From the NCBI GenBank assembly GCA_951406725.2, contig OX597818.1:21204001-21268000 (forward strand): a DNA stretch of 64,000 bases, given 5' to 3'. Position 1 is the first letter of the stretch, and each line of letters begins with the position of its first letter. The notes under the pieces are model-generated. The model was not told the origin of the DNA, made no database searches, and saw only the letters and a program-made list of their open reading frames with translations. The DNA comes from Octopus vulgaris (lineage: Eukaryota). The position numbers and the translations under genes are program-made. This document shows positions 2,247-61,064 of the stretch, in pieces.

Positions 2247-2452
2247 GGGAGATGTACTCGCATAGCAAGTAATTTGATCTGAGATCGTGTGCTGAAACGA
2301 AGACAATTGCAGCGTGGAAGGTGTTTATAAGCCATTTAAGAAACACACAAAAGCCGTTCGATTCACTTCAACATTTAAGTTTAATTTGTCAAAATATTTT
2401 TGTCGCTAAAATCCGCGACCTGTTCACTGACAAAGGCCGTGCTGCATCTCGT

Positions 2453-2455
<3 letters not shown>
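2247..2455 (-). mobile_element. Short hammerhead-bearing non-coding element in (TA)n
   Basis: Homologous to 2730-2940; TA-flanked; carries G3-C8 hammerhead. Confidence 0.7.
2385..2434 (-). ncRNA. Minimal hammerhead ribozyme, G3-C8 variant (copy 1)
   Basis: Minus: tttgtca-GTGAACA-g-gtcgc(ggatttta)gcgac-AAAA-atat-TT-tgacaaa; G12>A at a CpG. Confidence 0.7.
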
Positions 2456-2496
<41 letters not shown>

Positions 2497-2599
2497 TCAT
2501 ATATAAATATATATCAATATATATGTATATTTATGTATATTTATATATATAAATATAAATAAATATATATATATATATACATAAATATACATATAAATG

Positions 2600-2633
<34 letters not shown>

Positions 2634-2867
2634 TTTTTATATACATATATGATAATGATGACAACAACAATGATGATGATGATATACATATATATATATT
2701 TTTATATATATAAATATATATATATATTATGGAGTTGTACTTGCATAGCAAGTGACCTGATCTGACATCATGTGCTGAACAAAAATAATTGCAGTGTGGA
2801 AGGTATTTATATAAGCCATTTAAAAACACACACAAACCATCAGATTCACTTCAACATTTAAATTTAA

Positions 2868-2918
2868 TTTGTCAAAATATTTTTGTCGCTTTCAGACCGC
2901 AACCTGTTCACTGACAAA
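2868..2918 (-). ncRNA. Minimal hammerhead ribozyme, G3-C8 variant (copy 2)
   Basis: Minus: tttgtca-GTGAACA-g-gttgc(ggtctgaaa)gcgac-AAAA-atat-TT-tgacaaa. Confidence 0.7.
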
Positions 2919-2978
2919 ATTCCATGCTGCATTAGAGAAAATAACTAACTGTCACTTTCTCAGATGCAGCATGGAATT

Positions 2979-3027
2979 TTGTCGGTGAACAGGTCTCGGT
3001 CTCAAAGCAATGAAAATACTTTGACAA
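2979..3027 (+). ncRNA. Minimal hammerhead ribozyme, G3-C8 variant (copy 3, inverted arm)
   Basis: ttgtcg-GTGAACA-g-gtctc(ggtctcaaa)gcaat-GAAA-atac-TT-tgacaa; GAAA intact, stem II decayed. Confidence 0.65.
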
Positions 3028-3544
3028 CTTAAATTTAAACGTTGAAGTGAATCTAACGGTTTTTGTGTGTTTTCAAATGGCTTATAAACACCTTCCATGC
3101 TGCAATTGTGTATATATATATCTTTATATATTCTTTACTTTTATTTGTTTCAGTCATTTGGCTGCAGCCATACTGGAGTACCACCTTCAGTCAAACAAAT
3201 CGACCGTAGGACTTATTTTTTTAAGCCTAGTACTTATTCTATCACTCTCGTTTGCCAAGTTACAGGGACATAAACACACCAACACCAGTTGTCAAGGATG
3301 GTAGGGAGACAAACACATGCATACGCACACACACACATACACATACACACACACACATGCACATATACGACAGGCTTCTTTCAGTTTCTGTTCACCAGAT
3401 CCACTCACAAGGCTTTAGTTGGCCTGAGGTTATATTTTTTCTCCTTTCAGCTCAGACCTGTGGCCATGCTAGGGCACCACCGTTTTGCTACACTCTTATT
3501 ATTCAGAGCCCCCTCTAATATGTGACATTTGCAGCAAGATAGAT

Positions 3545-3995
3545 TCATCCGAGACTCTCAACATTTTGATTTGAAAACATCTACATCTACATTGTATAGG
3601 TCCTTCAGGCTCTTTGAGAGAATATTGAAAAGCTATGGACCCTGAACGCAGGCTGTTGCACTAACTCGTGCTGAAGTGTGATGGCATTGTGCAGTGTCGA
3701 CCCCCTTCTGGCATTGGTGTAGCTTTCCATGCCAAATTTGGCACAATTCCTCTAAGGATATTCCAGATAAATATTACTGCATACTTCTCCCGCATTTACT
3801 CCAGAGAGTAGAGTCTTAGCTGTTTCAGCCTTTTCCAGTAGCTGAACTGTTGCAATAAGACAATCTTTTTTGTGAAGCTTTGCTGGATTGCTTCAAGACC
3901 GCGGTTAATTTTACACTGTTGGGTGAGCATAGCTGGGAGCAGTAATACAGGTGGCTGAGGACAAATGTCCTCCAGAAGACCGTCATGGTTTCCTT
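3545..3995 (-). mobile_element. CR1/L2-like LINE 3' RT fragment
   Basis: FWRTFVLSHLYYCSQLCSP motif. Confidence 0.6.
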
Positions 3996-4558
3996 TTTCT
4001 TACCAACCACATGGTTCCAGGTTCAGTCCCACTGCGTGGCACCTTGGGCAAGTGTCTTCTACTATAGCCTCAGGCCGACCAAAGCCTTGTGTGTGGATTT
4101 GGTAGACAGAAACTGAAAGAAGTCCATCGTATATATGTATATATATATATATGTTTGTGTGTCTGTGTTTGTCCCCTAGCATTGCTTGACAACCGATGCT
4201 GGTGTGTTTATGCCCCCGTTACTTAGCGGTTCAGCAAAAGAGACCGATAGAATAATACTGGGCTTACAAAGAATAAGTCCCGGGGTCGAGTTGCTCGATT
4301 AAAGGTGGTGCTCCAGCATGGCCGCAGTCAAATGACTGAAACAAGTAAAAGAATAAAGAGTATATGTATATATATGTATATACATATGTAATTATATATA
4401 GATATATATGTATATACATATATAATTATATATAGATATCTATATATATGTATATATATATATAATTATATATAGGTATTTATATGTATGTATATATAAA
4501 TATATCCTTAAAATCCTTAAAAATGTTTTAGCCCGAAGGCCGCTCTATATATATATAT

Positions 4559-4908
4559 ATCCGAACGTGGCCGTAGCCAGTACCACATCGACTGGCCTCC
4601 GTGCTGTGGGCACGTAACAAACACCATCCGAGCATGGCCATTCGCCAGCCTCATCTGGCACCTGTGTCGGTGGCACAAAAAAAGCCCCATCCGAGTGTGG
4701 CCGTTCGCCAGCCTCATCTGGCACCTGTGTCGGTGGCACATAAAAAGCATCCACTACACTCACGGAGTGGTTGGCGTTAGGAAGGGCATCCAGCTGTAGA
4801 AACACTGACAGATCTGACTGGCCTGGTGCGGGCTTCCCAGACCCCAGTTGAACCGTCCAACCCATGCTAGCATGGAAAGCGGACGTTAAACGATGATGAT
4901 GATGATGA
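4559..4908 (+). mobile_element. RTE 3'-tail fragment
   Basis: ggcgttaggaagggcatccag...gacgttaaac(gat)n. Confidence 0.85.
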
Positions 4909-4959
4909 TATGTATATAAATATATATAGACAAGGGGAGAAATTAATGTAATCTTAGAA

Positions 4960-6756
4960 GTGAGAAAATCAGTAATACCTTTCGATAATAAACTATGGGT
5001 AAGAAAAGACTCCCCGAATAACTTTGATATCACTATGGAAGCCCCAGATTCAGCACAGGTTACAGACTTAGTAGGTATTTATTTGTTATCATACCTACAG
5101 GAAGAATTCCCAGAAATCAAGGGTAGGCTATATAGGGATGATGCACTATTCATACTAAAAAACGTCTCTAATAGGAAATTAGAACTCATTAAGAAAAAAC
5201 TATATAAATTTTTGAAAGATTCCTCTATTAATTACCTAGATGCCAACTGCAACCTAGCCATGGGACTCCATGAACCCTACGTAAAACTTAATACAAACCT
5301 CAAGTATATAAGCACATCCAGTAACCATCCAAACTTTATTAAAAGAGGGTTAGTATATAGCATTAGCAAAAGAATTTCACACCTTTCCTCTAACCTAGAT
5401 ATCTTCAATAAGTATAAAGATTTCTACAATAGCACATTAGAAAAAGCAGGGTACAAACAAAAAATTAAATACCTAGACTTAGAACACTACACAAATAACT
5501 GGAATAACATAAATGCCCAAGACAATTATCACAACTCTAACCACACTCCAAACGAAACTAATAACCACATTAAAAATATGAACAACATAGATAAGTTTAA
5601 TAACAATAATATCAAAAACAAAAACTGCAGAAATAATGCTAAGATTCATACTAAGATAACAAACAACATTAAAAATGATAATAAAACTAATACCAAAAAT
5701 GTGAAAATTAATAAAATTAAGAATACTAACATGATTAACAATAATAATAATAATAATAATAATATTAATAAGAATAAAACCAATGAAACCCAAAGAACCA
5801 ATATAACCCCAGTGAAGATTGTTAACACCCAGCCATATAACTTAAGAAAACCATACAGAAATAACCCTAATAAAACCCACACTAACAATAACAAAAATAA
5901 AAATAACTATAGAAAGAAATATAATAATCATAACAGCAACTTTACACTCTACACGAAAACTGAGGAGAGCTTCTACATCAAAAATAATAATATTAAATAT
6001 AAACGAAATAGTGATAAGATCTGGTTAATAATCCCCTACGCGATGCAGCTTAAATCTAACATAGTTCACTCCATAATGAGACTTGTAGGTAAGCACTTGA
6101 ACTTGAATAACAAATACTCAGAAATCTTTAAGAATAAAATTAGAGTAGGCCATAGCCTTACTAGTAACGTAGCTACCATCATAGCCTCGATCAACAATAA
6201 TAAGCTAGATGCTTTCTACGAAACTAGGAAAAATACCAGCATAAGACATAACAGCCAACAAGCAAATGGAATTAATCTCGTCCCTGATAGCCCACCCACA
6301 AACAACACAGACCTGATAAATAATTACGCCCCTCAACATAACATAAGCACAGATAAACTGAATAATTTATGTGGCTGCAGAGACAGAAATAAGTGTCAAT
6401 TCTCCAATAGGTGTAAAATAAAAAACGTAATATACCAATGCAACGTACTCACAAATAACCATACAAAATCTTATATAGGAGCCACGAAAAATGAAATGCT
6501 TCTTAGATACAATTCCCACCAATCTACATTTAGAAATAGAAGTAAAGCAAAGTCTACAAAAAAAATCAACTATAGTTTAGAATGGCGTATCCTAGCAAAA
6601 ACTTCGTCTTACACCATTAAAAGTAAGTGCTGTCAGTTATGTGAAACAGAAAAACTACTAATATTAATGGCCAAATCACCATTACTCAATAAGAAATATG
6701 AAAATAATATTTTTTGTCTGCATAAAGGCAGATTTGTATTCTCTAAGTTTCATTAA
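4960..6756 (+). CDS. Penelope-like RT/GIY-YIG polyprotein remnant (N-terminally truncated) with Asn-rich inserts
   Basis: 598-aa open frame with RT YRDD motif and GIY-YIG; short in-frame deletions appear likely after KFLKD and KAKST. Confidence 0.8.
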   Translation: MRKSVIPFDNKLWVRKDSPNNFDITMEAPDSAQVTDLVGIYLLSYLQEEFPEIKGRLYRDDALFILKNVSNRKLELIKKKLYKFLKDSSINYLDANCNLAMGLHEPYVKLNTNLKYISTSSNHPNFIKRGLVYSISKRISHLSSNLDIFNKYKDFYNSTLEKAGYKQKIKYLDLEHYTNNWNNINAQDNYHNSNHTPNETNNHIKNMNNIDKFNNNNIKNKNCRNNAKIHTKITNNIKNDNKTNTKNVKINKIKNTNMINNNNNNNNNINKNKTNETQRTNITPVKIVNTQPYNLRKPYRNNPNKTHTNNNKNKNNYRKKYNNHNSNFTLYTKTEESFYIKNNNIKYKRNSDKIWLIIPYAMQLKSNIVHSIMRLVGKHLNLNNKYSEIFKNKIRVGHSLTSNVATIIASINNNKLDAFYETRKNTSIRHNSQQANGINLVPDSPPTNNTDLINNYAPQHNISTDKLNNLCGCRDRNKCQFSNRCKIKNVIYQCNVLTNNHTKSYIGATKNEMLLRYNSHQSTFRNRSKAKSTKKINYSLEWRILAKTSSYTIKSKCCQLCETEKLLILMAKSPLLNKKYENNIFCLHKGRFVFSKFH

Positions 6757-7686
6757 ACCCACTCATCCCTATAAACACCACTATCTCCTAGCTTAAATGT
6801 TATTAGCAGACCTAATTTTCAGCCTTTTACCTCCCCTTAACCTTCCATAACCTAACTAGCTTACACATATCCAACCCACATAATAAATAAATAAAAATAT
6901 ACATATCTTACGCTAGCCTACCCCAACCCACATTATCAATAAATAATTAATACACATAAACTACTTTCTACGCTAGCCTACCTTCTCCCTATAATTCTTT
7001 CCTGTCAAGAACTACCAACTCTTTTACATGTTAATTTCCTCTTCTATCTCTTTCGTTACCTTTTCATTGTTATTAGCATAAATATTATTCCGATACTTTA
7101 TATTTACACGCTTAATCGCACTCATGCTAGATAAAAATTTTACCCTCATTTTCGGCTTCCTCTGCAAATATATGAACTACCCACAACCTATAAGTTAGTG
7201 ACACTTAACTCCTATTAACCACACCGGATATCCATAATTAGGGATAACTCCCTCAGATTACACCGCCGGTCAACTAGCTAAACAGGCAGACACATGGAAG
7301 TCATGCTAATAACTAACTACGAGACTTCGGATTCAACCATCCTCTATTCTTCAACTACCTCACAATGAACTTAATGAACTTTGAACACAACTAAATATTA
7401 GACTTTCGAATCATTGAACTTTTCCTTTCCGATTTCTCCCTCTATCTTTCGCTCTATTCCCCTCTTTGTCTATCTCTGCTTTCTTTGTTCAAAAACAAAT
7501 TACACAAACGTATATAAACAGAAGATACAAATATTACAGGCATTTCCCCCACACACACACACACTAACTAAACATAGATGCACATAGAGATATACACATG
7601 CACAAATGAAGACACATACAATAGAAATACAAAATGGCTGACGGTTAGTAAGGAGAGACACACAAATAAGAAAGAAGAAAGCAAAG

Positions 7687-7730
7687 GACCACTGATGCGG
7701 TCACAGGAATGTGATGAAAGAACTCTGGTC
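7687..7730 (+). ncRNA. Minimal type-I hammerhead ribozyme in Penelope 3' end
   Basis: gacca-CTGATGC-g-gtcaca(ggaa)tgtgat-GAAA-gaac-TC-tggtc; stem I 5 bp, stem II 6 bp; A9 is C. Confidence 0.75.
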
Positions 7731-7814
7731 GAAATAAGATTAAGATTAATGTAATAAATAAATAACACTGAAGCAAAGTAACACCAAATATATAGTGCGT
7801 GTGTTTTTATTGGC

Positions 7815-9021
7815 TAAACAGGGAGAAAAACTAGAAATAGTTGATAGCTTCCGTTACCTAGGTGACCAAGTCAGCAGCGGGGGCAGGTGTGCTGAAAGTG
7901 TAACTGCTAGAGTAAGAATAGCTTGGGCAAAGTTCAGAGAGCTCTTACCTCTGCTGGTGACAAAAGGCCTCTCGCTCAGAGTAAAAGGCAGACTGTATGA
8001 CGCGTGTGTACGAACAGCCATGCTACATGGCAGTGAAACATGGGCCGTGACTGCTGAGGATATGCGTAAGCTCGCAAGAAATGAAGCCAGTATGCTCCGA
8101 TGGATGTGTAATGTCAGTATTCATACTTGACAGAGTGTAAGTACCTTGAGAGAAAAGCTAGACCTAAGAAGCATCAGATGTGGTGTGCAAGAGAGACGTT
8201 TGCGCTGGTATGGACATGTGGCGAGAATGGATGAAGATAGTTGTGTGAAAAAGTGCCACACCCTAGCGGTTGAGGGAACCTGTTGAAGAGGCAGACCCAG
8301 GAAAACCTAGGACGAGGTGGTGAAGCACGACCTTCGAACTTTAGGTCTCACTGAGGAAATGACAAGAGACCGAGACCTCTGGAAGTATGCTGTGTGTGAG
8401 AAGACCTGGCAGGACAAGTGAGACCATAACCCGTGGCCTTCTACATGGGATGTAGCCAGCCCATTTATGCATACCTTCCCTTCTTGGGACACAAAACTCT
8501 ACTTGTGAAGACCTGTTGAGGCAAGTGAGAATCAGAATCGAAATCGATCAATGGAAATTGCAGCTGAGTTACCAGTGCCGGTGGCACGTAGGAGAACCAT
8601 CCGAATGTGGCCGTTGCCAGCGCCGCCTCGACTGGCCTCGTGCCGGTGGCACGTAAAAAGCACCATCTGTTCGTGGCCGTTGCCAGCCTCGCCTGGCCCC
8701 CGTGCCGGTGGCACGTAAAAAGCACCATCCGTTTGTGGCCGTTGCCAGCCTCGCCTCGCCCCCATGCCAGTGGCACATAAAAAGCATCATCCGATCGTGG
8801 CCGTTTGCCAGACTCATCTGGTACCTGTGCCGGTGGCACGTAAAAAGCACCCACTACACTCATGGAGTGGTTGGCGTTAGGAAGGGCATCCAGCCGTAGA
8901 AACATTGCCAGATCAAACTGGGCCTGGTGCAGCCTTCTGGCTTCCCAGACCCCAGTTGAACCGTCCAACCCATGCTAGCATGGAAAGCGGACGCTAAACG
9001 ATGATGATGATGATGATGATG
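7815..9021 (+). mobile_element. RTE LINE 3' fragment
   Basis: FRYLGD...MLHGSETW, tandem 3' UTR repeats, (GAT)n tail. Confidence 0.9.
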
Positions 9022-10201
9022 AAACTGGCAAAATGACCATTCCAAAATACAACAATATGAATAAATACAGTTCACCAGGTAGAATTTATTCTCATGTTTA
9101 CACCTGGCTGTTATACAAACTCCCCAACCTTTGTTATGTAGCACCACAAATTCATTTAATTTCTCATGTCAGGACATAACATGGTGTCTGAATTCACTGT
9201 GTATGATTAATGCATTTGCATCTTATTTCTGTTTACGAAAACCTGACATACTATAAAAAACCTATTTTTGTTTAAGAAATGGGACTTCTGTCAAGCTAAA
9301 AACATTTTCATCACTCACAGAGGAACACAACCACATTGTGGGTGGTGAGTAATTAACTCAACTCCCATACAAGACTGACTGATGCGTAGTTTATAGAGTC
9401 TCATGGGTGGGTAGGATGAAAGCAAAGTTCAGCTCAACAAGATTTTAAAACTAAAGAATTGTAACTAGAGAGCACAAATCATTCAATCTGGCACTCTACT
9501 AATTCTGTCAAACCAGTGCTATCTTCATAGTAACAATAATACTAATCCTTTATTCTAGGGACACAAGGCTTGAAATTTAGTGAGAGGGGTATAGTTGATT
9601 AAATCAACCCCAGTGTTCAACTGGTCTTTATTTTATCATTCTGGAATGGACAAAAGGCTAGGCCGACCTTGGTAGATTTAGAACTCAGAATGTAAAGGCA
9701 GATAAAATGCTGCTGAGCATTTTATACAACAATTCTGCCCACTTATCACCTTATTATTATAATCCTTTCTACTATAGGTACAAGGCCTGAAATTTGTGGT
9801 GAGTGGGCTAGTCAATTATATCACCCCCAGTGCTCAACTGGTAATTATTTCATTGACCCTGAAGGGATGAAAGGCAAAGTCAACTGCAGCAGAATTGAAA
9901 CTTAAAACAAAATGATGAACAAAATGCTGCTAATAATTCTACAAGCTCACAGCTTTCAAAAGGCTTTGTTTACTATAATAATAATCCTTTCTACTAAAGG
10001 CACAAGGCCTGAAATTTGGTGGGAGGGGTCTGGTCAATTACATCGACCCCAGTGTTTCACTGGTCCTTAATCTATTGACCTCAAAAGGATGAAAGGCAGA
10101 CAACCTCGGCAGAATTTGAACTCTGAATAAGACAACAGCCGAAATACCACTAAGCATTTCATCCAGCATACTAACAATTCTGCCAACTTGCCACCTTAGA
10201 C

Positions 10202-10209
10202 AATAATAA

Positions 10210-10275
<66 letters not shown>
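10202..10275. repeat. (AAT)n microsatellite
   Basis: Direct inspection. Confidence 0.95.
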
Positions 10276-15293: not shown

Positions 15294-15406
15294 AACTGAC
15301 AGCTGTTTCGGCCATGAAGATAGGTATGTCTCATTTAACCTATTAGCCATATAATGCAGGTATAAATGAGACATTAACAAGGATATTATACGGCCTCTTC
15401 GGAGAT
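15294..15406 (-). ncRNA. Hammerhead-like motif with long stem II insert
   Basis: Minus: atct-CCGAAGA-ggccg...tggcc-GAAA-cagctg-TC-agtt; internal 12-bp hairpin; U4>C and weak stem I. Confidence 0.6.
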
Positions 15407-17461: not shown

Positions 17462-18737
17462 CAGGGGTTGGACAAAATAATGGAAACACCTAGCATCATA
17501 GTACCATAAATATGAAATATCTATAAAACCATTAAAAGCTTGTTTGGTTTTATGTTTTTTGATTTATTATTAGTCTTGTTTAATATGTTTTGCTAAAATT
17601 GCTGTTTCTTTTCAGATATCATCAGAAAAAGGTAATTAAAATTCATTAAAAATACAGATCTATTGGACTTTGAAAGAGTCGAATTGTTGGTGCTTGAATG
17701 GCAGATGCTAATATAACAAAAGCAGCTGAAATGCTTGGTGTATTAAGAAGTACTGTCTTGAAAGTAATGCCAGCCTTTGAGAAAGGGGGAAAACCTCCTT
17801 GTCAAAACATAACTCCAGAAGAAAACCAAAACTTTCAGATAAGGGACCCTCAGACACTTACATGAATTGTTAGAAAGAATCACAAAAGTACAGTTCCCAA
17901 AATTACTGCAGAGCTTAATGACCACCTCAAGAACCCAGTTTCCACAAAAACTGTTCACCGAGAGCTGCACAAATCTGGATTTCACAGGAGGGCTGCAATC
18001 AGAAAACCACTACTTTCAAAAACAAACATTGCAAAGCATTTAGAGTGGAGTAAAAACCTACAGAATTGGTCCCCAAAGTAGTGGAAGAATGTTATTTTCT
18101 TGGACGAGTCATCCTTTACCTTATTTCCAACTACCAACCAAGTATACGTGTGGAGACAGCCAAAAGAGGCATTTGACTCAGACTGCCTTCTTCCAACTGT
18201 TAAACATGGAGGAGGATCTGTGATAATCTGGTGGGGGGGGGGGGCTATATCTTGGAAATCTGCTGGCCCACTCATATCCCTACAAGGCAGAATAGTCAAG
18301 CCTATTTAAGCATTTTATCTGATCAGATTCATCCTATGGTTGTGGAACTGTTTCCGGAGGGAATCGCAGTCTTTCAGGATGATAATGCAGCAATTCACAC
18401 AGCTAAAGTTGTTACTGAATGGCATGAAGAACATTCTAGTGAAGTTGAACATCTTATCTGGCCACCACAGTCCCCAGATCTCAATATTATTGAACATTTA
18501 TGCTACATTTTAGAAAACAAGTAAGGAGTCGATATCCTCCACCATCATCACTACAAGAACTGGAGACTGTTTTACCTGAAGAATGGACAAAAATTCCTTT
18601 GGAAACAATTCAAACTTTCTACAAGACCATATCTCATAGAATTCAAGCTATTATTACTGCCAAAGGCAGTCCTATCCCATACTAAAATAAATTTGTTTGA
18701 AATTTGAAGGTGTTTCCATTATTTTGTCTAACCCCTG
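17462..18737 (+). mobile_element. Tc1/mariner DNA transposon, decayed transposase
   Basis: TIR caggggttggacaaaataatggaaacacc / ggtgtttccattattttgtctaacccctg, TA TSDs; DES, VKHGGGSV, FQDDNA, WPPQSPDLNIIE; stops and frameshifts. Confidence 0.95.
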
Positions 18738-24895: not shown

Positions 24896-24962
24896 AGCCT
24901 GAATGATGCTGATGACCTGCGTCGCCGCCATCAATCGATGTATGGATGTAAAAGTACTAGTT
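24896..24962 (+). ncRNA. Degenerate hammerhead motif, same family as 49444
   Basis: CTGAATGA/CTGATGA...AAAA-gtac-TA-gtt, followed by ~140 bp similar to the reverse complement of 49305-49450. Confidence 0.4.
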
Positions 24963-25167
24963 TTATCACAATAAATATATAATATTCTATTAATATATTA
25001 TTGTAAAATTGTAAAAATTGTAAATAATAAAATATGAAAATCAGATGAGGTTGGAATTTCATTGATTAATATATTCTTCTACACACAATCATACAAACCC
25101 GTGTGTGTGAACATATATGTATATATATATATATATAGAGAGAGGGAGAGAGAGAGAGAGATGTGTG

Positions 25168-25376
25168 TATTTTTCCCTTGTTAACAATTAACACAGAAAA
25201 AATAGATAAATAGTTACCAGGGTAGCAAAAAATTACACAAGTAAAAAGGTTGTAACTCCTTGTTTTTAAAGGTAGAAACTTCGGGTTTATGTGAAATTTT
25301 TTGTATGATATATATATAAATAAATAAATGTGTCAGAAGTAAAAGAATTTGAATAACACCCGTGTTTAACTCCATT
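25168..25376. mobile_element. Partial copy of the 27498-28225 family with a short inverted tail
   Basis: 25168-25320 matches 27498-27645, then inverted aaa-tgtg-tc-agaagtaaaagaatttgaataacacc. Confidence 0.75.
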
Positions 25377-25382
25377 TATTTA

Positions 25383-25428
<46 letters not shown>

Positions 25429-26664: not shown

Positions 26665-27027
26665 GTAAAAGCACCGTCCGTTCGTGGCCGTTTGCCAGCT
26701 CTGTCTGGCCCCGTGTCGGTGGCACGTAAAAGCACCATCCATTCGTGTCCGTTGCCAGCATCACCTGGCCCCGTGCCGGTGACACGTAAAAGCACCATCC
26801 GTTCGTGGCCGTTGTGCCAGCTCTGTCTGGCACCTGTGCAGGTGGCACGTAAAAAACACCCACTACACTTGCGGAGTGGTTGGCGTTAGGAAGGGCATCC
26901 AGCCGTAGAAACACTGCCAAATCTGACTGGGCCTGATGAAGCCTTCCGGCTTCACAGACCCCAGTTAAACCGTCCAACCCATGCTAGCATGGAAAACGGA
27001 CGCTAAATGATGATGATGATGATGATG

Positions 27028-27496: not shown

Positions 27497-27682
27497 ATTT
27501 TTCCCTTATTAACAATTAACATAGAAAAAATAGATAAATAGTTACCAGGGTAGCAAAAAAAATCACACAAGTAAAAAGGGTGCAGCTTCTTGTTTCTAAA
27601 GGTAGAAACTCCAAGTTTACATGAAATATTTTGTATAATATATAAATAGAGTTAAATGCAGGTGTTATTCAAATTCTTTTAA

Positions 27683-27765
27683 TTCCGACACATTTCGAAG
27701 ATATCACTGGTATTATTCCAAAAGAATAAAATGGTGTAAAACAATGTAATCTTCGCTTCAGGGAA
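27683..27765 (-). ncRNA. Hammerhead ribozyme (left arm of fold-back)
   Basis: Minus: ttcc-CTGAAGC-gaagat...atcttc-GAAA-tgtg-TC-ggaa. Confidence 0.75.
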
Positions 27766-28104
27766 ATGAAGAAATGAAACTCGTCAATAAGACATTTTAA
27801 CAGAATATGATGGATATGTATAGTGATTAACTGAACGATATTAAGTTTATTTAAAAAAAAACGTTAGAAAATATAACGTCAAAGGTAGGCTATAGAAAGT
27901 GGAGGGGTAAAGGAAGCATGCTTCTTAACCACACAGCCATGCAGTCAAACAGACTTTCCTTTACCCCTCCTCTTTCTATAGGCTATCTTTGACGTTATAT
28001 CCTCTAACGATATTTTAAAACAAACTTAATAGCGTTCAGTTAATCACTATACATATCCATCATATTTGGTTGAAATGTCTTATTGACAAGTTTCATTTCT
28101 TCAT

Positions 28105-28186
28105 TTCCTTGAAGAGAAGATTACATTGTTTTACACCATTTAATCCTTTGGAATAATACCAGTGATATCTTCAAAACGAGTCGGAA
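28105..28186 (+). ncRNA. Hammerhead ribozyme (right arm of fold-back)
   Basis: ttcc-TTGAAGA-gaagat...atcttc-AAAA-cgag-TC-ggaa; consensus with the left arm is CTGAAGA...GAAA-cgNg-TC. Confidence 0.7.
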
Positions 28187-28223
28187 GTAAAAGAATTTGA
28201 ATAACACCTGCGTTTAACTCCAT

Positions 28224-28255
<32 letters not shown>

Positions 28256-41299: not shown

Positions 41300-41999
41300 T
41301 GATCTTTTCTTTTTGAACGGCAGCTTTCAACACAATTTCTAGTTAACTAAACACTTTTAAACTTCGTATACTGGTAGAATGTGTCAAAATAAAACATTTT
41401 TTTCTCTTGGCTTTCTTGAGAAAATTGTAATTTGTAAGTTTAACGTAGTTTAATTTTTCGAATTTTAACCAATTCTATGGCCTCTATTGAGCTGAAATCA
41501 TTTGCTGCGTCTAAAACAGACAACATCCTGTCACTAACCCAAACCCTAAATTTTAGCCTTTCGTTTTTTTTTTTCTTAATTGTTAAATTAATTTAAGGAT
41601 AACAATTAAGAAAAAAAAAACGAAAGGCTAAAACGAAAACAAAAACTCAAAACAAAAACAAAACGAATAATTTTAGACACACGCGTAACAATTAAATTGA
41701 TTTAACAATTAAGAAAAAAAAAACGAAAGGCTAAAATTTAGGGTTAGGGTGAGGGTTAGAGTTAGTGACAGGATGTTGTCTGTTTTAGACGCAGCAAATG
41801 ATTTCAGCTCAATAGAGGCCATAGAATTGGTTAAAATTCGAAAAATTAAACTACGTTAAACTTACAAATTACAATTTTCTCAAGAAAGCCAAGAGAAAAA
41901 AATGTTTTATTTTGACACATTCTACCAGTATACGAAGTTTAAAAGTGTTTAGTTAACTAGAAATTGTGTTGAAAACTGCCGTTCAAAAGGAAAAGATCC
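41300..41999. mobile_element. Palindromic (two left halves) derivative of a Merlin-like MITE
   Basis: ~295-bp near-perfect arms; termini gatcttttc../..gaaaagatcc; 8-bp TSD tcgacctc/tcgaactc. Confidence 0.85.
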
Positions 42000-49237: not shown

Positions 49238-49290
<53 letters not shown>

Positions 49291-49304
49291 CAAACATAAA
49301 CATA

Positions 49305-49614
49305 CATGGGTGTGTATGATTGTATATAGAAGAATATATTACTCAAAGAAATTGCAGCTTTGTCTGATTTTCACGTTTTATTTACAATCTTATAATAATA
49401 TAATATAATGAAATGATAGAATATTAAATGTCCATTCTGATTAAACTAGTACATTCATGCATTAAACTATACAATCTTCAGGTTCATGAAAGTACTAGTT
49501 TAATCAGAATGGACATTTAATATTCTATCATTTCATTATATTATATTATATTATTATAAGATTGTAAATAAAACGTGAAAATCAGACAAAGTTGGAATTT
49601 CTTTGAGTAATATA
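49305..49614. mobile_element. Near-perfect fold-back with central hammerhead
   Basis: Arms 49335-49459 and 49485-49614; TA/CA-flanked. Confidence 0.85.
49444..49484 (-). ncRNA. Minimal hammerhead ribozyme at centre of fold-back
   Basis: Minus: aac-CTGAAGA-ttgtat(agttta)atgcat-GAAT-gtac-TA-gtt; the inverted arm keeps GAAA-gtac-TA-gtt. Confidence 0.7.
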
Positions 49615-50234
49615 CATATATATATATATACACACACACACACATACATATATATTTACATTATATATACACAGATAAAGGTATGGAGTGCTCACCATCA
49701 CCAGTCTGATAATAGCAAGCAAGCTGAAATTTCAAAGTCACTGTCAACCTTTTACTTGAAACTATCAATAAATATGTACTCTCTGACAAAGTATTGAGTA
49801 ATCCTTCAGTTTAATGTTAAATTCTTTTTATATTGACATAAAAACAAACACACACACACATAAATGAGACTGATAGAATAAGTACTAGGCTTAAGGTGGC
49901 GAGCTGGCAGAAACGTTAGCACGCCGGGCGAATGCTTAGTGTTATTTCGTCTGTCTTTACGTTCTGAGTTCAAATTCCGCTGAGATCGACTTTGCTTTTC
50001 ATCCTTTCGGGGTTGATAAATTAAGTACCAGTTGCATACTGGGGTCAATCTAATCGACTGGCCCCCTCCCCCAAAAATTTCAGGCCTTGTGCCTAGAGTA
50101 GAATAGAATAAGTACTAGGCTTTAAAAAATAAGCCCTGGGGTTGATTTGTTCATCTAAAACTTTCAAGGCGGTACCACAGACTGGCCACAGTCATAATGG
50201 CTGAAACAAGTAAAAGATAGAAGATATATATATA

Positions 50235-51926: not shown

Positions 51927-52009
51927 TTCACTACAGCTATTTCAGACGTGCTTTTTACTAATGAACAAAAAAATTATATAGTGTAAAAACATTGTTTTCT
52001 TCAGGTGAA
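51927..52009 (-). ncRNA. Hammerhead ribozyme with canonical core and extended stem II
   Basis: Minus: ttcac-CTGAAGA-aaac...gtct-GAAA-tagctg-TA-gtgaa; perfect 5-bp stem I. Confidence 0.8.
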
Positions 52010-52329: not shown

Positions 52330-53620
52330 AAAAGATAAGGTACAATAAAGATGATATGAAACTCCATAAGATGTACCCAGTGTAAGCTATGGACACATAA
52401 GAAATGCAGCAATATCAAAGGAAGGTTAACAGGGAAAATAATTTTTGTGTGTGGAAGGTGCACAGGTACAATTAACACTAAAAATGTACAGAAAATAGAC
52501 TCCATCAAATGCCAAGGGGAAAAACTAGAAGTAGTTGAGAGCTTCCATTATGTAGGTGACCAAGTCAGTAGCTGGGATGAATGTTCTGAGAGCATAGCTG
52601 CTAGAATAAGAATAGGCTGGGTAAAGTTCAGAGAGCTCCTACCTCTGTTGGTAACAAAAGGCTTCTCTCTCAGAGTGAAAGGCAGATTGTATAATGCCTG
52701 TGTACGAACAGCCATGCTACATGGCAGTGAAACATGGGCTGTGACCAACAAGAGCATGTGTAGGCTTGAAAGAAATGAAGCTAGTCTGCTTCACTGGATG
52801 TGTAATGTCAGTGTGCATACATACAGAGTGTAAGCGTCTTGAGAAAAAAGTTGGACATAAGAGGCATCAGATGTGATGTGCAAGAGAGACAACTACACTG
52901 GTATGGTAATGTGTTGTATATGGATGAGGACAGCTGTGTGAAGAAGCATCATACTCTAGCAGTAGAGGGAACCTGTGAAAGAGGTAAACCTAGAAAGACA
53001 TGGGATGAGGTGGTGAAGCATGACTGTCGAACGTTGGGCCTCACAGAGGCAATGACAAGTGATGGAAATCTTTGGTGATATGCCATGCTTGAGAAGAATC
53101 GTCAAGCCAAGTGAAATCATAGTCATGGCTGATGCCAGCGTTGCATCTATCCGTTCAGTCAAAGTCGACTCTCGGTTACTCGATGGATCAGTGTTCTCCA
53201 GCCAGTTTTATCCTGGGTCACTTCTTTCAGATTGGCTATGGCCATTCCTGTGTCACTCTTGATGGTGTCAAGCCAGTGGGTTCTTGGTCAGCCTCCCCTT
53301 GCCACTGACCATTCCGAGCATGATGTCCTTCTCCAGGGATTTTCTCCACATAACTGGTACATAAAAAGCACCATTCAAATGTGCTTGAGAAGACTTGTCA
53401 AGACAAGTGAGATTGTAGTCATGGCCAATACTAGTGTTATATAACTGGCACATAAAAAGCACTTACTACATTCTTGGAGTGGTTGACATTAGGAAGGGCA
53501 TCCAGCTGTTAAAACCATGCCTAATCAAACTGGAACCTGGTGCAGCTTACCAGTTTTCAGTCAAACTGTCCAACCCATGCCAGCATGGAAAACAGATGCT
53601 AAATGATAATGATGATAACA
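52330..53620 (+). mobile_element. RTE LINE 3' fragment
   Basis: CTQC..HKKC..CGRC, FHYVGD, MLHGSETW, RTE tail. Confidence 0.85.
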
Positions 53621-55800: not shown

Positions 55801-55945
55801 AATAGCACGCCCACACAAGTTAGATTATCTCCTTTTTGGCGGGGATTTTCCAATTTTTTCCCCTGCACTCTTGCAAATGGTTGGGGTAGGGGGAACTTTT
55901 TTATGAATCCTCCACTTCCTGACCGATTTTGTCCCTTTTTTTTTT

Positions 55946-56355
55946 GGATCTTTTCGGTTTGAACGGCAGTTTTTTCTAGCGGTGTCATATGAAATTGTCA
56001 CCCATAATTATGACCCTAGTATCAATCTATTGCATTTCAATCTGTTTTAGGGTTAGGGTAGTTAGGGGTGGGGGAAGGGTATCTTTTTTTCTTCACAAAT
56101 GTAAATAAACCCAATCTGTTTCTTAAACGAGGGACATATTCATACGGCACAGAATGTTTTTTTTTACCTCAATAGACGTCAGTGATTGGTTGAAATTGAA
56201 GAAAAAAAACAAATATCTTACAAACTATAGAATTTTCTCAATAAAGCCAAGAGAAAAAGATGTTTTATAAACACATTCTACCAGTATACGAAGTTTAAAA
56301 GTGTTTAGTTACGTGGAAATTATTTTAAAAAACTGCCGTTCAAACTGAAAACATC
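55946..56355 (-). mobile_element. Second copy of the same MITE, opposite orientation
   Basis: Reverse-complement match to 47376-47789. Confidence 0.9.
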
Positions 56356-56986
56356 ATAAAAGGATAACGTGATAAAAAAAAATAAATAAATCCTAAAATT
56401 TCAGCTTCTTATTGAAAATTTTTTTAAATTATAGTTTTAAAATATGCGTGTGTGTGTGCATATAAAGGAAAGTCATATTTACTGACAGAAAAGAAAAGAA
56501 TCGATTTATCAACCTAATGAAATTTATTTCATACATCCATACACACTCACTGACAAACACACACACAGACTCAGCATGAGCGATATGCTTTTTTTATATA
56601 TAATATTCTTTTTTAACCTCCAAGGCTTCTCCTGAGGTTTTTAAGGGCATAGTGCAAAAAAAAAAAAACATTAGCCAAAATCAGTACTGAATGGACAGGG
56701 TTCCAAAATATTTATACATTTTCAAAATTGTTTTCTTGGACAAAATCAGTCTGGAACTGGGGATTCATAAATTTGCAAGGATTTTTTTCATGAAAACCTT
56801 CCCTCCATCATTTGCAAAGGTATGAGTAAGAGGGAATGTAAAAAATTCACCAGCAAAATAGAAAATCCAACTTATATGATTGTGCAATTCAGAAAGCCCA
56901 CCAAGGCATTCTGTTGTGAAAATTTCCTGGCAATGACAGGATACTCAGTGATGGTGTTTGAATATATATATGTGTGTGTGTGTGTC

Positions 56987-59900
56987 ATTATCATCATCAT
57001 TGTTTAACATCCCTTTTCCATACTGGCATGGATTGGACAGTTTGACTGGGAACTGGCAAGCCAGGAGGCTACACCAGGTTCCAATCTGGTCTGGGAAGGT
57101 TTCTACAGCTGGGTGCTTTTTACATGCTACTGGCACAGGAGCCAGTCAGAGCGAGGGACAGGCTGGCATCAACCACATTTGGATGGTGCTTTTTTACGTG
57201 CCACCAGCACAGGGAGCTGGTCAGGTAGCACTAGCAATGACCCATGCATGAATGGTGCTTATTGCATGTCACCAGCATGGGAGCCAGTCAGGTGGCACTG
57301 GCATCGGCCACAACTACAATTTCCATTTTGATTTTTGATTTTACTTACTCAATAGGTCTCCTCAAGCATGACATGTCACCTGACAATTCAATGGTATTTT
57401 TTAAATAGGCTGGTTATGCGACACTGGTATAGGCTTATGTCTGTAATCTCACTTTACTTGCCAGGTCTTTTCAATCACAGCGTGTCTCCAGAGGTCTCAG
57501 TCTCTTGACATTGCCTCTATGAGACCTAACGTTTGAAGGCTGTGCTTCACCACCTCATCCCATATCTTCCACTGTTAGGGAGTGACACTTCTTCACACAG
57601 CTCTCCTCATCCAGATGCAGCACATGACCATACCAACACAGTCGTCTCTCTTGCCCACCACATTTGATGCTTCTTATGTCCAACATACTAGCTTCATTTC
57701 TTTCAAGCCTATGTCCTCAACAGTCACAGCCCATATTTCACTGCAATGTAGCATGGCAGTATGCACACATGCATTGTACAATCTACCCTTCACTCTGAGC
57801 GAGAGGCCTTTTGTCACCGTTAGACGTAGGAGCTTTCTGAACTTTGCCCAGACTATTCTTATTCTCTCAGAGTACCCACCTCCACCACAGACTTCGTCAC
57901 CTAGGTAGCAGAAGCTATCAACTACTTCTAGTTTCTCTCCCTGGCATGTGATGGAATCTGTTTTCTGAGCATCTTCAATGTTTATTGCCCCTGTGCATCT
58001 GCCGCACACAAAAGCTATCATCCTAGTTAACCTTCCTTTGATGTTGCTGCACCTCTTATGATTCCATAGCTTACACTGGGTACATCTTATGGAGTCTCTA
58101 CCTACACCTTTTCTACAGATCGAGCAGGGCTATCTACCTGAAGGGATTTGTGGTTTGTTCGCCTTCCTACTTACTTGGACTTTGGTTTTTGCAACATTAA
58201 CTCTAAGGCCTTTCAATTCTTAACTTTGCTTCCGCACCTGAAATTTCTTCTCTAGTTCTGGTAGTGATTCAGCTATGAGAACAAGGTCATCAGCATAGAG
58301 GAGCTCCCAGGGGCAGTCTGTTTTGAATTCCTCTGTTATTGCCTGGAGGACTATGATGAATAAGAGGGGACTGATCTTTGGTGAACCCCTATTTCTACCC
58401 AGAATTCTTCGCTATACTTGTTGCCAACCTTACCTTACTGACAGCATCTCTGTATGGCTCTTATTAACCACTCATCTATCCCTAGTTTCCACACCACCCA
58501 CAAGATAAGGGATTAGGAGACCCTGTCGAAGGCTTTCTCCAAGTCAACAAAAGCCAAGTATATGGGTTTATCTTTGGCTAGGTATTTCTCCTGCAGTTGC
58601 CTTACCAGAAATATAGTATCAGTGGTGCTTCTGCCTGGCACAAAACTGAACTGCATCTCATTTAAGCAGAGTCACTCAATAATTAGTTGGGCTATAACCC
58701 TCTCCGGGACCTTCATCACCTGATCCATCAGTTTGATAGCCCTGTAGCTATTTCTATCTAAAACATCACCTTTACTTTTGTAGCAGTTGACTATGGTGCT
58801 GCTATGCCAGTCATTGGGTATGGCTCCTTCGTGAACTACTTGATTTACAATACGGATGACTAGACTATAACCCACACCACCAGATATTTTAAGCATCTCA
58901 GCAGTGATTCCTGATAGGCTGGGAGCTTTTCTGACTTTTTATCCTTAATTGCTTTATCTGCCAGGGTGCTGTTGATTCAGGTAGCTGGTCCCTCGATTGG
59001 GTCAACATCTAGCAGGATTTTTTTCTCCCATTCATTCTCCACATTCAGCAGCCTTTCATAATGGCATCTCCAAGCCTATTTCTTTGAAGAATGATTAAAA
59101 GTAAGTGCACCATCATCTATGCAAACACATTTCTCTCCTCTAACATCACAGTTTTCTCTAATACACTGTCTTGCAATCCGAAATACTTTAGTTGTTTGGT
59201 CCTCACTTCACTGAACATTCACAGACTTCTTTTCTGCTTCTCCCTTGGCTATATATACCTGTCTCCCAGCCTCCCTACTGACTATCTGGTACAGTTCCTG
59301 CTGCTCCCACTCTTCCAGGTTTTCCAGGTCTGTTTCTTTGCTCTAATGGCCTTGTCTACCATATAATTCCACCACCACGTTACCATAGGTCTGAAAGGGA
59401 CTTTGCACTAGCCACAGATTTGGTATGTGGTGCTCAGTAAGCTGTCACATAGGAATTTCCACTTACCCTCTATGTCACAAGTCTGTGGCTCCTCCTCTCT
59501 CTCATTAAGTGAAGATGTCCCTAAATCTCCTTCTTCTCTGGATTAGTCTGCTTCTTGGCATCCTTCTGGCCTCGATTCTAAAGTCACTAATGACTAGCCT
59601 ATGCTGAGGTACATTCTTCGCCAGGGAGGGTCTTTGCATTTAAGAGCAAACATGCATCCTGCTGTCTGGTGAGGATGAAATCAATCAGGCTGGCAGAGTC
59701 GCCTGATTGATAGGTTATCAGGTGGCTGTCTGGCTTCCTGAAATTGGTGTTGCAAATTAATAGGTTGCTTGAATCAAAGAACTCCTGTAGCCTAGTTCCC
59801 TCTTCGTTTCAGGAACCAATTCCATGGTCCCCATGAACACCATGGAAGATAACAGATTGCCATCTAACATGCCCATTAAAATCTCCAGCCACAAAGATGA

Positions 59901-60330
59901 GGTCATTGCCATTCGTCTTTAAGGTAGCCTGATGAAGGATAGCATAAAAGTGGTCCTTCTGATCATTTGGTAGGCCCACATGTGGGGTGTAGGCAGAGAT
60001 AATTGTAGCTATACTATTCTGCATGACTAACCTGAGTTTAAGCACTCTATCGCATACCCTGACTACCTTTATGACCTTATCTACCCATTTCTCTGCAAGG
60101 AGTTTGCCTACACCCCCTACTCTATCACTGTTACCTTCCCAGAAGATTTTATACCTATGTGCCTTGCCTGTGAAGCTCCTCCAGCAAACAGCAACATATC
60201 TCCATTCAAGCATCTATACAATCTCATTAGACCTTCATTTCAATGTGCGTACATTAACAGTGCCAACTCTAAAAACTGAGAAATGAATGTGGGATGAGGT
60301 ATGGGAAGGGGAGATGTTATTCAGCACCTG
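56987..60330 (-). mobile_element. Near-full-length decayed RTE LINE (APE + RT)
   Basis: TLNV, GVG, SAY.P, GDFNGHV, VDLEKAFD, LLYADDL, FCYLGD, RVKGRLY; (GAT)n 3' tail. Confidence 0.9.
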
Positions 60331-60364
60331 AAAAGAAGGTTTCCGTGTTTTATATATATATATA

Positions 60365-61064
60365 TATTAATAATAATAAAAGGGTAAAATTAATTTATAA
60401 TTTTACCAAGTAGATCGGTATGTTAAAATAACCTTTTTTCAGGTGAAATTACATAAATATTCTATAATTATAAACATAATTATAATTAGGGTTCAGCTAA
60501 TTGCTTCACCACATATCGAATTTAGAAATAGGAGTTAAAAATTCCTACCGTAAGAATCTCCCAGACAGTAACACATTTTTTATGTAGGCAAAAAGAAAAA
60601 TAATGAATCCACACAACTCCAATTAGCCATATAGGCATTTCGAGATTAAAGTATATTTACTTACTTATTTCTCATTATCAGTGTAGCATTTCAAATATAA
60701 AATTTGAAAGTGCTTGGGTTAAATACACGCACAATCAAGCATCATCACACAAAGGATATCCAACCAACACTTTCAAAATATACACAGCCGAATGTGAATA
60801 CATATTTGTCCCTTGTACTCACATGTATGTTACAAGTGATCCCACAGAAACTGCAGTTTTCAATCAGGGAGTAAATCATAATTTCAATATTAATAATAAA
60901 AGGGTAAAATTAATTAATAATTTTACCAAGTAGATCGGTACATTAAAATAACCTCTTTAGGTAAAATTACACAAATATTCTATAATTATAAACATAATTA
61001 CAATTAGGGGTCAGCTAATTGCTTCACCACATACCGAATTTAGAAATAGGAGTTAAAAATTCCT
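60365..61064 (-). mobile_element. ~520-nt-period element with ~180-bp direct repeats (pLTR-like) and internal hammerhead
   Basis: 60365-60546 matches 60887-61064; TA-flanked. Confidence 0.8.
60626..60687 (-). ncRNA. Degenerate hammerhead ribozyme between direct repeats
   Basis: Minus: gctaca-CTGATAA-t-gaga...tctc-GAAA-tgcc-TA-tatggc; G8>A. Confidence 0.6.

What the first reader, a model, noticed from the sequence alone, without database searches (positions are those of the whole stretch)
2385..60687. About ten minimal hammerhead ribozymes from ~7 families in 64 kb: a hidden population of non-coding, (TA)n-associated Penelope/retrozyme-like elements
Seen: motifs with the layout stemI-(C/G)TGAN(G/C)A-stemII-GAAA-4 or 6 nt (near-)palindrome-TH-stemI at 2385-, 2868-, 2979+, 7687+, 15294-, 24896+, 27683-, 28105+, 49444-, 51927- and 60626-. 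Stem III spacers are ATAT, GTAC, CAGCTG/TAGCTG and probable decayed CGCG. Apart from the one at the end of the Penelope element, they lie in 200-700 bp ORF-less segments in or next to TA-rich microsatellites. Established: minimal type-I hammerheads with a palindromic stem III are the hallmark of Penelope-like element pLTRs and are thought to cleave as dimers; metazoan retrozymes produce circular RNAs. Inference: this genome hosts many distinct non-autonomous or heavily truncated ribozyme-bearing elements, mobilised by Penelope/Naiad RT-GIY-YIG, which routine annotation would dismiss as low complexity.
Basis: partly seen in the sequence, partly recalled or inferred. Interest (0 to 1): 0.9.

Follow-up and report, generated by a model that had tools for sequence, protein, structure and literature searches.

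The report
Hammerheads on truncated octopus Penelope elements
Ten of the eleven motifs are real but decayed hammerhead-ribozyme sequences, mostly on the broken-off tail ends of protein-coding Penelope-type jumping genes (a known arrangement), while one belongs to a gene-less repeat of about 530 bases that likely borrows those genes' enzymes and may form RNA circles.

Summary
Ten of 11 motifs are homologues of real minimal type-I hammerheads in seven multicopy families. 24896 is only half a motif. No window copy passes a strict descriptor (0 of 11), but intact siblings exist in every family. An unbiased 720-kb sample gave 12 intact motifs against 0.23 in shuffles, about 47,000 genome-wide.

Five of seven families (A-E) are 3' ends of 5'-truncated autonomous Penelope-like elements. 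C and E are Hydra-clade-like; A, B and D are Neptune-type by linker motif. None is a Naiad. The 7687 motif does not belong to the neighbouring ORF. F is unresolved. Only G is ORF-less: a 520-540-nt head-to-tail unit with natural two-hammerhead dimers, related to two more such units found elsewhere in the genome.

The phenomenon was described in 2014, and this scan met it in other genomes. Not found in the papers searched: the octopus census, 50-86-nt covarying stem II extensions outside the published descriptor, and the ~535-nt retrozyme-like group. Cleavage and circles are untested. Interest 0.38.

The parts
2303..2449 (-). Family A 3'-end fragment; hammerhead 2385-2434 with G3-C8 covariant core, extra base after A9, ATAT spacer, U17; this copy G12A
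   Evidence: parent Neptune-type ORF ends about 1 kb upstream in L232, L233, L289
2679..2945 (-). Family A copy, inverted partner of the next part; hammerhead 2868-2918, G12A
2943..3131 (+). Family A copy; hammerhead 2979-3027, core bases intact, stem II broken
4930..6756 (+). 5'-truncated Hydra-clade-like PLE reading frame (family H): RT end, CxCX5C linker, C-terminal GIY-YIG with CxxC and CxH
   Evidence: motif definitions in PMC8557442; no Pfam match at E<=0.1
6757..7489 (+). 3' UTR of family H, cut where its own long-stem-II hammerhead begins in sibling copies
7490..7822 (+). Family B 3'-end fragment; hammerhead 7687-7730, A9C; unrelated to the ORF upstream of it
   Evidence: Neptune-type parent ORF in L234, L236, L238
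15073..15713 (-). Family C 3'-end fragment; hammerhead 15296-15404 with 86-nt stem II domain, CAGCTG spacer, U4C
   Evidence: Hydra-type ORF ends about 2.3-2.4 kb upstream in 7 of 8 long loci
24951..25136 (+). Family D fragment truncated inside the hammerhead; only the 3' half of the motif is present
27631..27915 (-). Family E copy (inverted partner); hammerhead 27683-27765, 58-nt stem II domain, A9C
27954..28230 (+). Family E copy; hammerhead 28105-28186, C3U and G12A
   Evidence: Hydra-type endonuclease ends about 300 nt upstream in 9 of 29 loci
49278..49671 (-). Family D copy (49278-49488) with an inverted 5' piece (49485-49671, +); hammerhead 49442-49486, GTAC spacer, U-U at the base of stem II, A15.1U
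   Evidence: endonuclease-coding sequence continuous upstream in L115, L123, L125
51654..52361 (-). Family F fragment; hammerhead 51927-52009, 54-nt stem II domain, core intact, stem II weak; parent ORF not established
60368..61073 (-). Family G: ORF-less more-than-unit insertion with 518-nt period (about 60888-61064 repeats 60368-60546); hammerhead 60626-60687, G8A in this copy

Best explanation
These motifs are decayed minimal type-I hammerhead sequences on the 3' ends of Penelope-like retroelements: five of seven families are 5'-truncated copies of protein-coding elements, one (G) is a gene-less ~530-nt tandem unit likely mobilised by such an element, and one (F) is likely a further truncated coding element. 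Shown: fixed 3' ends downstream of the hammerhead, variable 5' truncation, inverted 5' pieces, (TA)n at the 3' junction, upstream RT/GIY-YIG ORFs for A-E, and head-to-tail continuity without an ORF for G. Inferred from published PLE biochemistry: the element's protein nicks AT-rich DNA and starts reverse transcription at one of two internal sites downstream of the hammerhead, on an RNA not cut there. It usually falls off after 100-1000 nt, so most insertions are just the hammerhead-bearing tail. Inferred: intact source hammerheads cleave only as dimers through the self-complementary stem III or with protein help, and the solitary mutated window copies are inert.
For: ORFs collinear upstream of the hammerhead: A (L232, L233, L289), B (L234, L236, L238), C (7 of 8 long loci), D (L115, L123, L125), E (9 of 29 loci). 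Two alternative 3' ends in A, C and G match the two RT start sites ('tail') of PMC11167929. Inverted upstream copies in 9/30, 3/24, 11/24, 7/23, 5/29, 7/24 and 7/24 loci for A-G. (TA)5+ near the 3' end in 11/30, 16/24, 24/24, 19/23, 14/29, 8/24 and 15/24, against background 0.10-0.26. Intact cores in 16/30, 4/24, 3/24, 16/23, 18/29, 11/24 and 19/24. With no palindrome constraint, 10 of 10 six-base spacers in the sample are self-complementary against 0 of 7 in 10 shuffles. Stems covary across related families: 9 of 24 pairs change on both sides, 89.7% of cells paired. G: of 24 hammerhead-centred loci, 9 reach about 210 nt upstream and 7 of these run on into the element's own downstream sequence; L355 has two intact hammerheads 538 nt apart; longest ATG ORF 58 aa.
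Against: No cleavage, expression or circle data. F has no proven ORF (one locus, L382, has a Hydra-type endonuclease end about 1 kb upstream, with DNA homology traced only to about -700), and its (TA)n association (8/24 against 0.26) is not above background. Clade names rest on motifs compared by eye with PMC8557442, not on a tree. Pfam matches are below cut-off for A and B and absent for the Hydra-type ORFs. 27 of 30 A copies stop within a few bases of one 5' position, which random truncation does not explain. 3 of 7 window copies tested do not fold into the full hammerhead shape by energy (D, F; G lacks stem I), nor do intact copies L355 and L239. The count of pairs with double changes alone is not above its shuffle (55 of 500), and the rows are related. 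All loci were the best matches to the window copy, so the fractions are not genome-wide.
Confidence: 0.88

Rival explanations
1. All seven families are non-autonomous retrozymes or SINE-like ribozyme elements that spread through short circular RNAs.
For: Window copies are 150-700 bp and ORF-less. G, and J and K elsewhere, are ORF-less tandem units. A has a sharp 5' boundary in 27 of 30 copies, so a short A subfamily is possible.
Against: Five families continue into PLE ORFs. 446 exact matches carry A's upstream extension. A same-strand scan of 399 loci found only 4 close hammerhead pairs, two of them fragmented A insertions.
Confidence: 0.05
2. Family G is only a gutted PLE or a satellite-like by-product copied from uncut read-through RNA. 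Its hammerhead is a passenger and no circles are made.
For: Hammerhead mutants do not affect insertion in vitro and unprocessed RNA is the main substrate (PMC11167929). G 5' ends scatter and some run through the upstream hammerhead, with no pile-up at the cleavage site. Core-mutant subfamilies have amplified: C at position 9 in 19 of 24 B copies, U4C in 21 of 24 C copies. 8 of 9 tested Xenopus dimers did not cleave.
Against: G keeps an intact core in 19 of 24 copies although they are only 83-91% identical to the window copy. Three related ~535-nt units (G, J, K) keep the core while their stems differ. This rival differs from the best explanation only on G's RNA intermediate.
Confidence: 0.5
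3. The motifs are chance matches in AT-rich, repeat-rich DNA.
For: 0 strict matches in the window; loose descriptors hit shuffled DNA often (24.5 per window); one of the 11 sites is half chance; Rfam finds no hammerhead.
Against: 12 against 0.23 strict hits in 720 kb; intact cores in BLAST-defined siblings; palindromic spacers without being asked for; compensatory changes; consistent position downstream of PLE ORFs.
Confidence: 0.01
4. The elements derive from or are mobilised by Naiads.
For: Naiads prefer (TA)n and occur in octopus; some have half-core motifs.
Against: Naiads lack canonical hammerheads, have an N-terminal endonuclease and are remnants in cephalopods. All five parents found have the endonuclease at the C-terminus, just before the 3' UTR.
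Confidence: 0.03

Closest known systems
Minimal hammerheads (min-HHR) in pLTRs of metazoan PLEs (Cervera and de la Pena 2014, PMC4209133)
   Same: Type-I topology, short helix I, unpaired base between 9 and 10.1 (A, B, G), palindromic stem III, 3-8 covariation, thousands of single dispersed copies, opposite-strand pairs 100-700 bp apart, many unrelated families per genome; molluscs already included.
   Different: The published descriptor allows loop 2 of 3-10 nt and a 2-base spacer. Here 14 of 28 clusters have 51-86-nt stem II domains, all with 6-base spacers. Family A uses G3-C8 with U17. The estimated 47,000 intact motifs exceed the 2,000-9,000 reported there, with different descriptors.
Hydra-clade PLEs, including Hydra-1_Obim (Craig et al. 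2021, PMC8557442)
   Same: C-terminal GIY-YIG, CxCX5C linker (H, C), CxxC and CxH motifs, DKT in the related L278 element, (TA)n insertion, hammerhead near the 3' end.
   Different: The Hydra-clade rows of supplementary file S2 all have loop 2 of 10 nt or less and mostly 7-8-base spacers. Family C has a 2.3-kb 3' UTR and exceeds the usual <3 kb. E and L278 lack the CxCX5C linker.
Neptune-type PLEs
   Same: CX2-5CxxC linker before a C-terminal GIY-YIG in A, B and D; weak RVT_1 and GIY-YIG Pfam matches for B, GIY-YIG only for A.
   Different: Not placed on a tree, so Neptune and Nematis are not separated; 3' UTRs of 0.55-1 kb contain microsatellite tracts.
Non-LTR retrozymes (Cervera and de la Pena 2020, PMC7229834; Li et al. 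2026, bioRxiv 10.64898/2026.07.22.740005)
   Same: G, J and K are ORF-less head-to-tail units with a type-I hammerhead, 31-33% GC (G, J), with two consecutive intact hammerheads; size within the 51-972-bp range of Li et al.
   Different: Units of 530-540 nt rather than about 300; minimal rather than canonical hammerhead; at most about 1.5 units seen rather than arrays; PLE-type tails and inverted 5' pieces; circles not shown.
PAc Poseidon element of Anolis (Frangieh et al. 2024, PMC11167929)
   Same: Two alternative 3' ends downstream of the hammerhead, AT-rich targets, insertions that span the uncut hammerhead.
   Different: A different clade; there the ORF starts within the hammerhead; nothing was assayed here.

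Membership tests
PLE minimal type-I hammerhead | Conserved core (3-8 pair, UGA, A9, GAAA, U16.1, H17) | tested here: met
   Intact in 87 of 178 aligned family copies, in all 7 families; 2 of 10 window copies
PLE minimal type-I hammerhead | Paired helix I and helix II with covariation | tested here: met
   (7 related rows; 9 of 24 pairs change on both sides; slid controls 32-54% paired against 90%)
PLE minimal type-I hammerhead | Short self-complementary stem III | tested here: met
   10 of 10 six-base spacers against 0 of 7 in shuffles; B's GAAC spacer has one mismatch
PLE minimal type-I hammerhead | Loop 2 of 3-10 nt (published descriptor) | tested here: not met
   Met by A, B, D; not by C (86-nt domain), E (58), F (54), G (33)
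PLE minimal type-I hammerhead | Lies in the terminal repeat or 3' UTR of an RT/GIY-YIG element | tested here: met
   A-E and H; inconclusive for F; no ORF for G
PLE minimal type-I hammerhead | Self-cleavage as dimer or with protein | not testable with these tools
   Only predicted self-duplex energies of -0.2 to -11.1 kcal/mol
Hydra-clade PLE (C, E, H) | C-terminal GIY-YIG with CxxC before E and CxH | tested here: met
Hydra-clade PLE (C, E, H) | CxCX5C linker | tested here: inconclusive
   Present in H and C, absent in E and L278
Hydra-clade PLE (C, E, H) | Insertion into (TA)n | tested here: met
   C 24 of 24, E 14 of 29 against 0.24 and 0.10; H not counted
Hydra-clade PLE (C, E, H) | Phylogenetic placement with reference Hydra RTs | not tested
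   Only compared by eye with printed Hydra-1_Obim motifs
Neptune-clade PLE (A, B, D) | CX2-5CxxC linker and C-terminal GIY-YIG | tested here: met
Neptune-clade PLE (A, B, D) | Phylogenetic placement (Neptune versus Nematis) | not tested
   No reference set was at hand
Naiad PLE | N-terminal endonuclease and no canonical hammerhead | tested here: not met
Non-LTR retrozyme (G) | ORF-less head-to-tail unit with type-I hammerhead | tested here: met
Non-LTR retrozyme (G) | [quoted passage not shown] | tested here: met
   L355, 538 nt apart; 1 clear case among 54 loci (some duplicated between two searches)
Non-LTR retrozyme (G) | Canonical helix sizes and loop 1 - loop 2 tertiary contact | tested here: inconclusive
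   Layout is of the minimal type with an extended stem II; tertiary contacts were not modelled
Non-LTR retrozyme (G) | Expressed as linear and circular monomer RNA | not testable with these tools
   Only assembled contigs were available
Non-LTR retrozyme (A-E) | No protein-coding parent sequence in the unit | tested here: not met

The most novel reading that the evidence does not exclude
Octopus carries a superfamily of ~535-nt gene-less retrozymes (G, J, K) that are still transcribed, cleave as dimers and circulate as RNA circles. The 50-86-nt covarying stem II extension of its Hydra-type hammerheads is a functional module, for example a docking site that makes cleavage depend on the element's own protein. 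This would define a hammerhead variant invisible to current descriptors and give natural dimers for testing what PLE hammerheads do.
Probability: 0.3. Interest if true: 0.65.

Novelty: new variant of a known kind. Interest (0 to 1): 0.38.

Why it matters
The class is known, so the headline claim of a hidden new population does not stand. Three smaller points add value. (1) A census: about one intact hammerhead per 60 kb (about 47,000; 95% range 24,000-82,000) in an octopus genome, missed by Rfam and not mentioned in the octopus repeat paper read. (2) Half of the hammerhead clusters have long paired stem II extensions that the published descriptor cannot find, so counts in other animals may be too low. 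(3) Natural ORF-less dimers with two intact hammerheads, one 99.7% identical between units, plus amplified core-mutant subfamilies, give ready material for the open question of whether PLE hammerheads are needed, parasitic or protein-switched.

Tried and rejected
Rfam: no hammerhead family among 81 matches in the window (E<=5) or 78 matches in 10 loci holding intact copies (E<=0.05).

Pfam and PDB gave nothing useful for the window ORF.

The first descriptor omitted the extra base after A9 and recovered only 2 listed sites; it was replaced.

RNA: no listed holder is on record as RNA. Contigs of three guessed-RNA runs and one unlabelled run covered parts of G but cannot show ends, strand or circles. 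This is no evidence either way.

A genome-wide gapped pattern for G dimers did not run, so the number of dimers in the genome is unknown.

F parent: two searches did not link it securely to an ORF; endonuclease remnants near F in L136 and L156 are not continuous with it.

I considered family A as a DNA-transposon MITE because some copies end in short inverted termini, and rejected it since long copies run into a PLE ORF. I rejected the 7687 motif as the pLTR of the window ORF. A pseudoknot between loop II and flanks was looked for by eye only and not seen consistently. Depth peaks were not interpreted.

Lunse et al. 2017 on short-stem-III hammerheads could not be read. It, file 1 of the Cervera 2014 supplement and the closed bioRxiv supplements may already show long stem II variants.

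Full report
Setting. The window lies in G000, a 2.8-Gb genome. The nearest named relative of a family B protein is labelled Octopus vulgaris at 88% identity, so this is an octopus genome. The window holds LINE fragments, microsatellites and one truncated Penelope-like reading frame at 4930-6756.

Observation. Ten of the eleven sites have the stated layout at the stated places. The eleventh (24896) matches family D only from 24951, which is the 3' half of the motif. Eight of the ten have a core substitution and the other two have a broken stem II. My descriptor allowed 3-8 covariation, one extra base after A9, stem II domains up to 95 nt and 4- or 6-base spacers. In the window it gives 0 strict hits; 6 relaxed hits against 1.1 +/- 1.1 in 100 block-wise dinucleotide shuffles; 11 against 4.4 at the loose tier (1 of 100 as high); and 36 against 24.5 at the loosest (5 of 100). 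The window alone is therefore modest evidence. Rfam reports no hammerhead in the window or in ten loci with intact copies.

Families. Genome searches with each motif gave 2495 (A), 1259 (B), 1332 (C), 1252 (D), 3225 (E), 668 (F) and 564 (G) first-look candidates, of which 40 each were scored and 24-30 fetched. Intact cores occur in 16/30, 4/24, 3/24, 16/23, 18/29, 11/24 and 19/24 aligned copies (one duplicate locus each was dropped from D and E; the window's own copy is included in each). These loci are the best matches to the window copy, so they share its variants. Even so, C at position 9 in 19 of 24 B copies and U4C in 21 of 24 C copies show that core-mutant source elements have amplified.

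Chance control. In 72 evenly spaced 10-kb stretches (720 kb) the strict descriptor found 12 motifs against 0.23 in 30 shuffles. That scales to about 47,000 (95% Poisson range 24,000-82,000). Counting decayed homologues of the clusters known to me gives 23 in 720 kb (about 89,000) against 0 in a shuffle, and 10 in the 64-kb window. The window is thus several times denser than average, partly because the probes came from it. With no palindrome rule, 10 of 10 six-base spacers were self-complementary against 0 of 7 in ten shuffles; four-base spacers gave 3 of 3 against 3 of 6. In 350 loci, 156 strict motifs fell into 28 clusters; 14 of the 28 have 51-86-nt stem II domains, all with six-base spacers. 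In seven alignable relatives of E, 89.7% of cells pair, 9 of 24 pairs change on both sides, and 7 of the 12 pairs of the extended stem II do. Slid controls pair 32-54%. The number of pairs with double changes alone is not above its shuffle (55 of 500), and the rows are related.

What the elements are. Copies share fixed 3' ends and differ in 5' extent (output partly cut). Inverted upstream pieces occur in 49 of 178 loci, and (TA)5+ follows the 3' end above background in all families except F. Long copies lead into ORFs. A: RT end and GIY-YIG, ending about 1 kb upstream across a microsatellite (L232, L233, L289). B: likewise, about 0.45-0.6 kb upstream (L234, L236, L238). C: about 2.3 kb upstream in 7 of 8 long loci. 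D: about 0.55 kb upstream in L115, L123 and L125. E: about 0.3 kb upstream in 9 of 29 loci. C, E and the window ORF (H) carry the endonuclease motifs that define the Hydra clade; H and C also have the CxCX5C linker. A, B and D have a CX2-5CxxC linker, as in Neptune. No tree was built. The window ORF's siblings have their own long-stem-II hammerhead, which is missing here: H homology stops at 7486 and B begins at 7490. F spans at least 1.1 kb without an ORF; one locus has a Hydra-type endonuclease end about 1 kb upstream.

Family G. The window copy repeats 178 bases at a period of 518. Among 24 hammerhead-centred loci, 9 reach about 210 nt upstream. Seven of them continue into the element's own downstream sequence and two stop; none continues into an ORF. 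A second search selected for this junction gave L355 with two intact hammerheads 538 nt apart and L352 with a damaged upstream one. 5' ends scatter and do not pile up at the predicted cleavage site. Two further ORF-less tandems turned up in flanks: J (L272, 535 nt, units 99.7% identical, both hammerheads intact) and K (L200, 530 nt, 96%). J and K are clearly homologous (z about 12), G and K probably (z about 5), G and J weakly (z 2-3). The J unit folds as a circle about 8 s.d. below shuffles; G about 2 s.d..

Mechanism. Shown here: anatomy and family structure. From the literature: a purified PLE protein nicks AT-rich DNA, starts reverse transcription at two internal sites downstream of the hammerhead, does not need hammerhead cleavage for insertion, and assists cleavage (PMC11167929, parts 1-2 of 4 read). 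Min-HHRs cleave weakly and only as dimers (PMC4209133, parts 1-2 of 4). Inference: most insertions are early-terminated cDNAs that begin just downstream of an uncut hammerhead, which is why short hammerhead-bearing tails dominate and decay. For G, copies longer than one unit need a tandem or circular template; the data cannot tell which.

Comparison. Cervera and de la Pena 2014 described massive dispersed min-HHRs, opposite-strand pairs, the 9a base and 3-8 covariation, and linked them to truncated PLEs. Their supplement passages show mollusc examples and a descriptor with loop 2 of 3-10 nt (file 1 not searched). Craig et al. 2021 (passages, one section part and supplement parts) defined Hydra, curated an octopus member, listed only short loops for Hydra hammerheads, and reported that Naiads lack canonical hammerheads. 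Li et al. 2026 (parts 1-3 of 5; supplements closed) argue that animal retrozymes are non-autonomous PLE derivatives and found cleavage in 1 of 9 dimers. Cervera and de la Pena 2020, the 2019 review PMC6765202, PMC3088659 and the octopus repeat annotation PMC13282606 were read as passages; the last has no occurrence of 'ribozyme' in its main text. Searches for octopus with hammerhead or retrozyme, and for long stem II with Penelope-like, showed no octopus census and no long-stem-II PLE variant; the library lacks most subscription papers. Earlier notes of this scan reached the same truncated-PLE reading in other genomes; none exist for this genome or for G.

Verdict. Real motifs of a known kind, mostly inert tails of coding PLEs. 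The long stem II variant and the ~535-nt retrozyme-like units are the parts worth following up. Novelty: new variant of a known kind. Interest 0.38.

Noticed in passing
L272:1243-2175: ORF-less tandem (family J), 535-nt period, units 99.7% identical, two intact hammerheads with 51-nt stem II, between (TA)n tracts; a permuted copy is in L080. Best candidate for a young retrozyme.
   Followed up: partly
L200:1650-2750: ORF-less tandem (family K), 530-nt period, two hammerheads with a U-U first pair and an inverted 5' piece; homologous to J.
   Followed up: partly
window 60660-60670; L272, L200: G, J and K share the word GTAAGTAAA inside stem II, which is both a hairpin part and a splice-donor-like sequence; role unknown.
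   Followed up: no
window 2930-2965 and L001-L030: 27 of 30 family A copies stop about 20 nt upstream of the core, at a site that looks like a splice acceptor and shares five bases with the element's inverted 3' end; 446 exact matches extend beyond it. Unexplained truncation hot spot or a short subfamily.
   Followed up: partly
window 7486-7490: The H-to-B junction falls at the first base of H's own hammerhead core; not seen in the other 23 B loci or 19 H loci, so probably a one-off template switch or nested insertion.
   Followed up: partly
L039, L097, L114, L168, L298: Hammerhead clusters with U3-A8 covariant cores.
   Followed up: no
L294, L306, L324, L240: A short-stem hammerhead family absent from the window was the commonest in the unbiased sample (5 of 23 homologues) and includes U4C copies.
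   Followed up: no
L278:1-4250: Young Hydra-type element with long open frames (574 and 633 aa) and a 99.7%-identical inverted 5' copy, nested next to a family C copy.
   Followed up: partly
window 18204-18524: DDE_3 (Tc1/mariner-type) transposase fragment, Pfam E 2e-9.
   Followed up: no
window 41504-41795: Long inverted repeat that looks like a MITE (seen through a spurious Rfam microRNA match).
   Followed up: no
window 4427-4474, 9022-9066, 25328-25390: Very short 3'-terminal scraps matching families C, B and E without the hammerhead.
   Followed up: no
window 4624-4748, 8575-8851, 26665-26854, 33866-34006, 63827-63998: Recurrent SINE-like repeat with internal 60-63-bp tandem units; LINE fragments at about 7820-8200, 52360-52830 and 57670-60210.
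   Followed up: no
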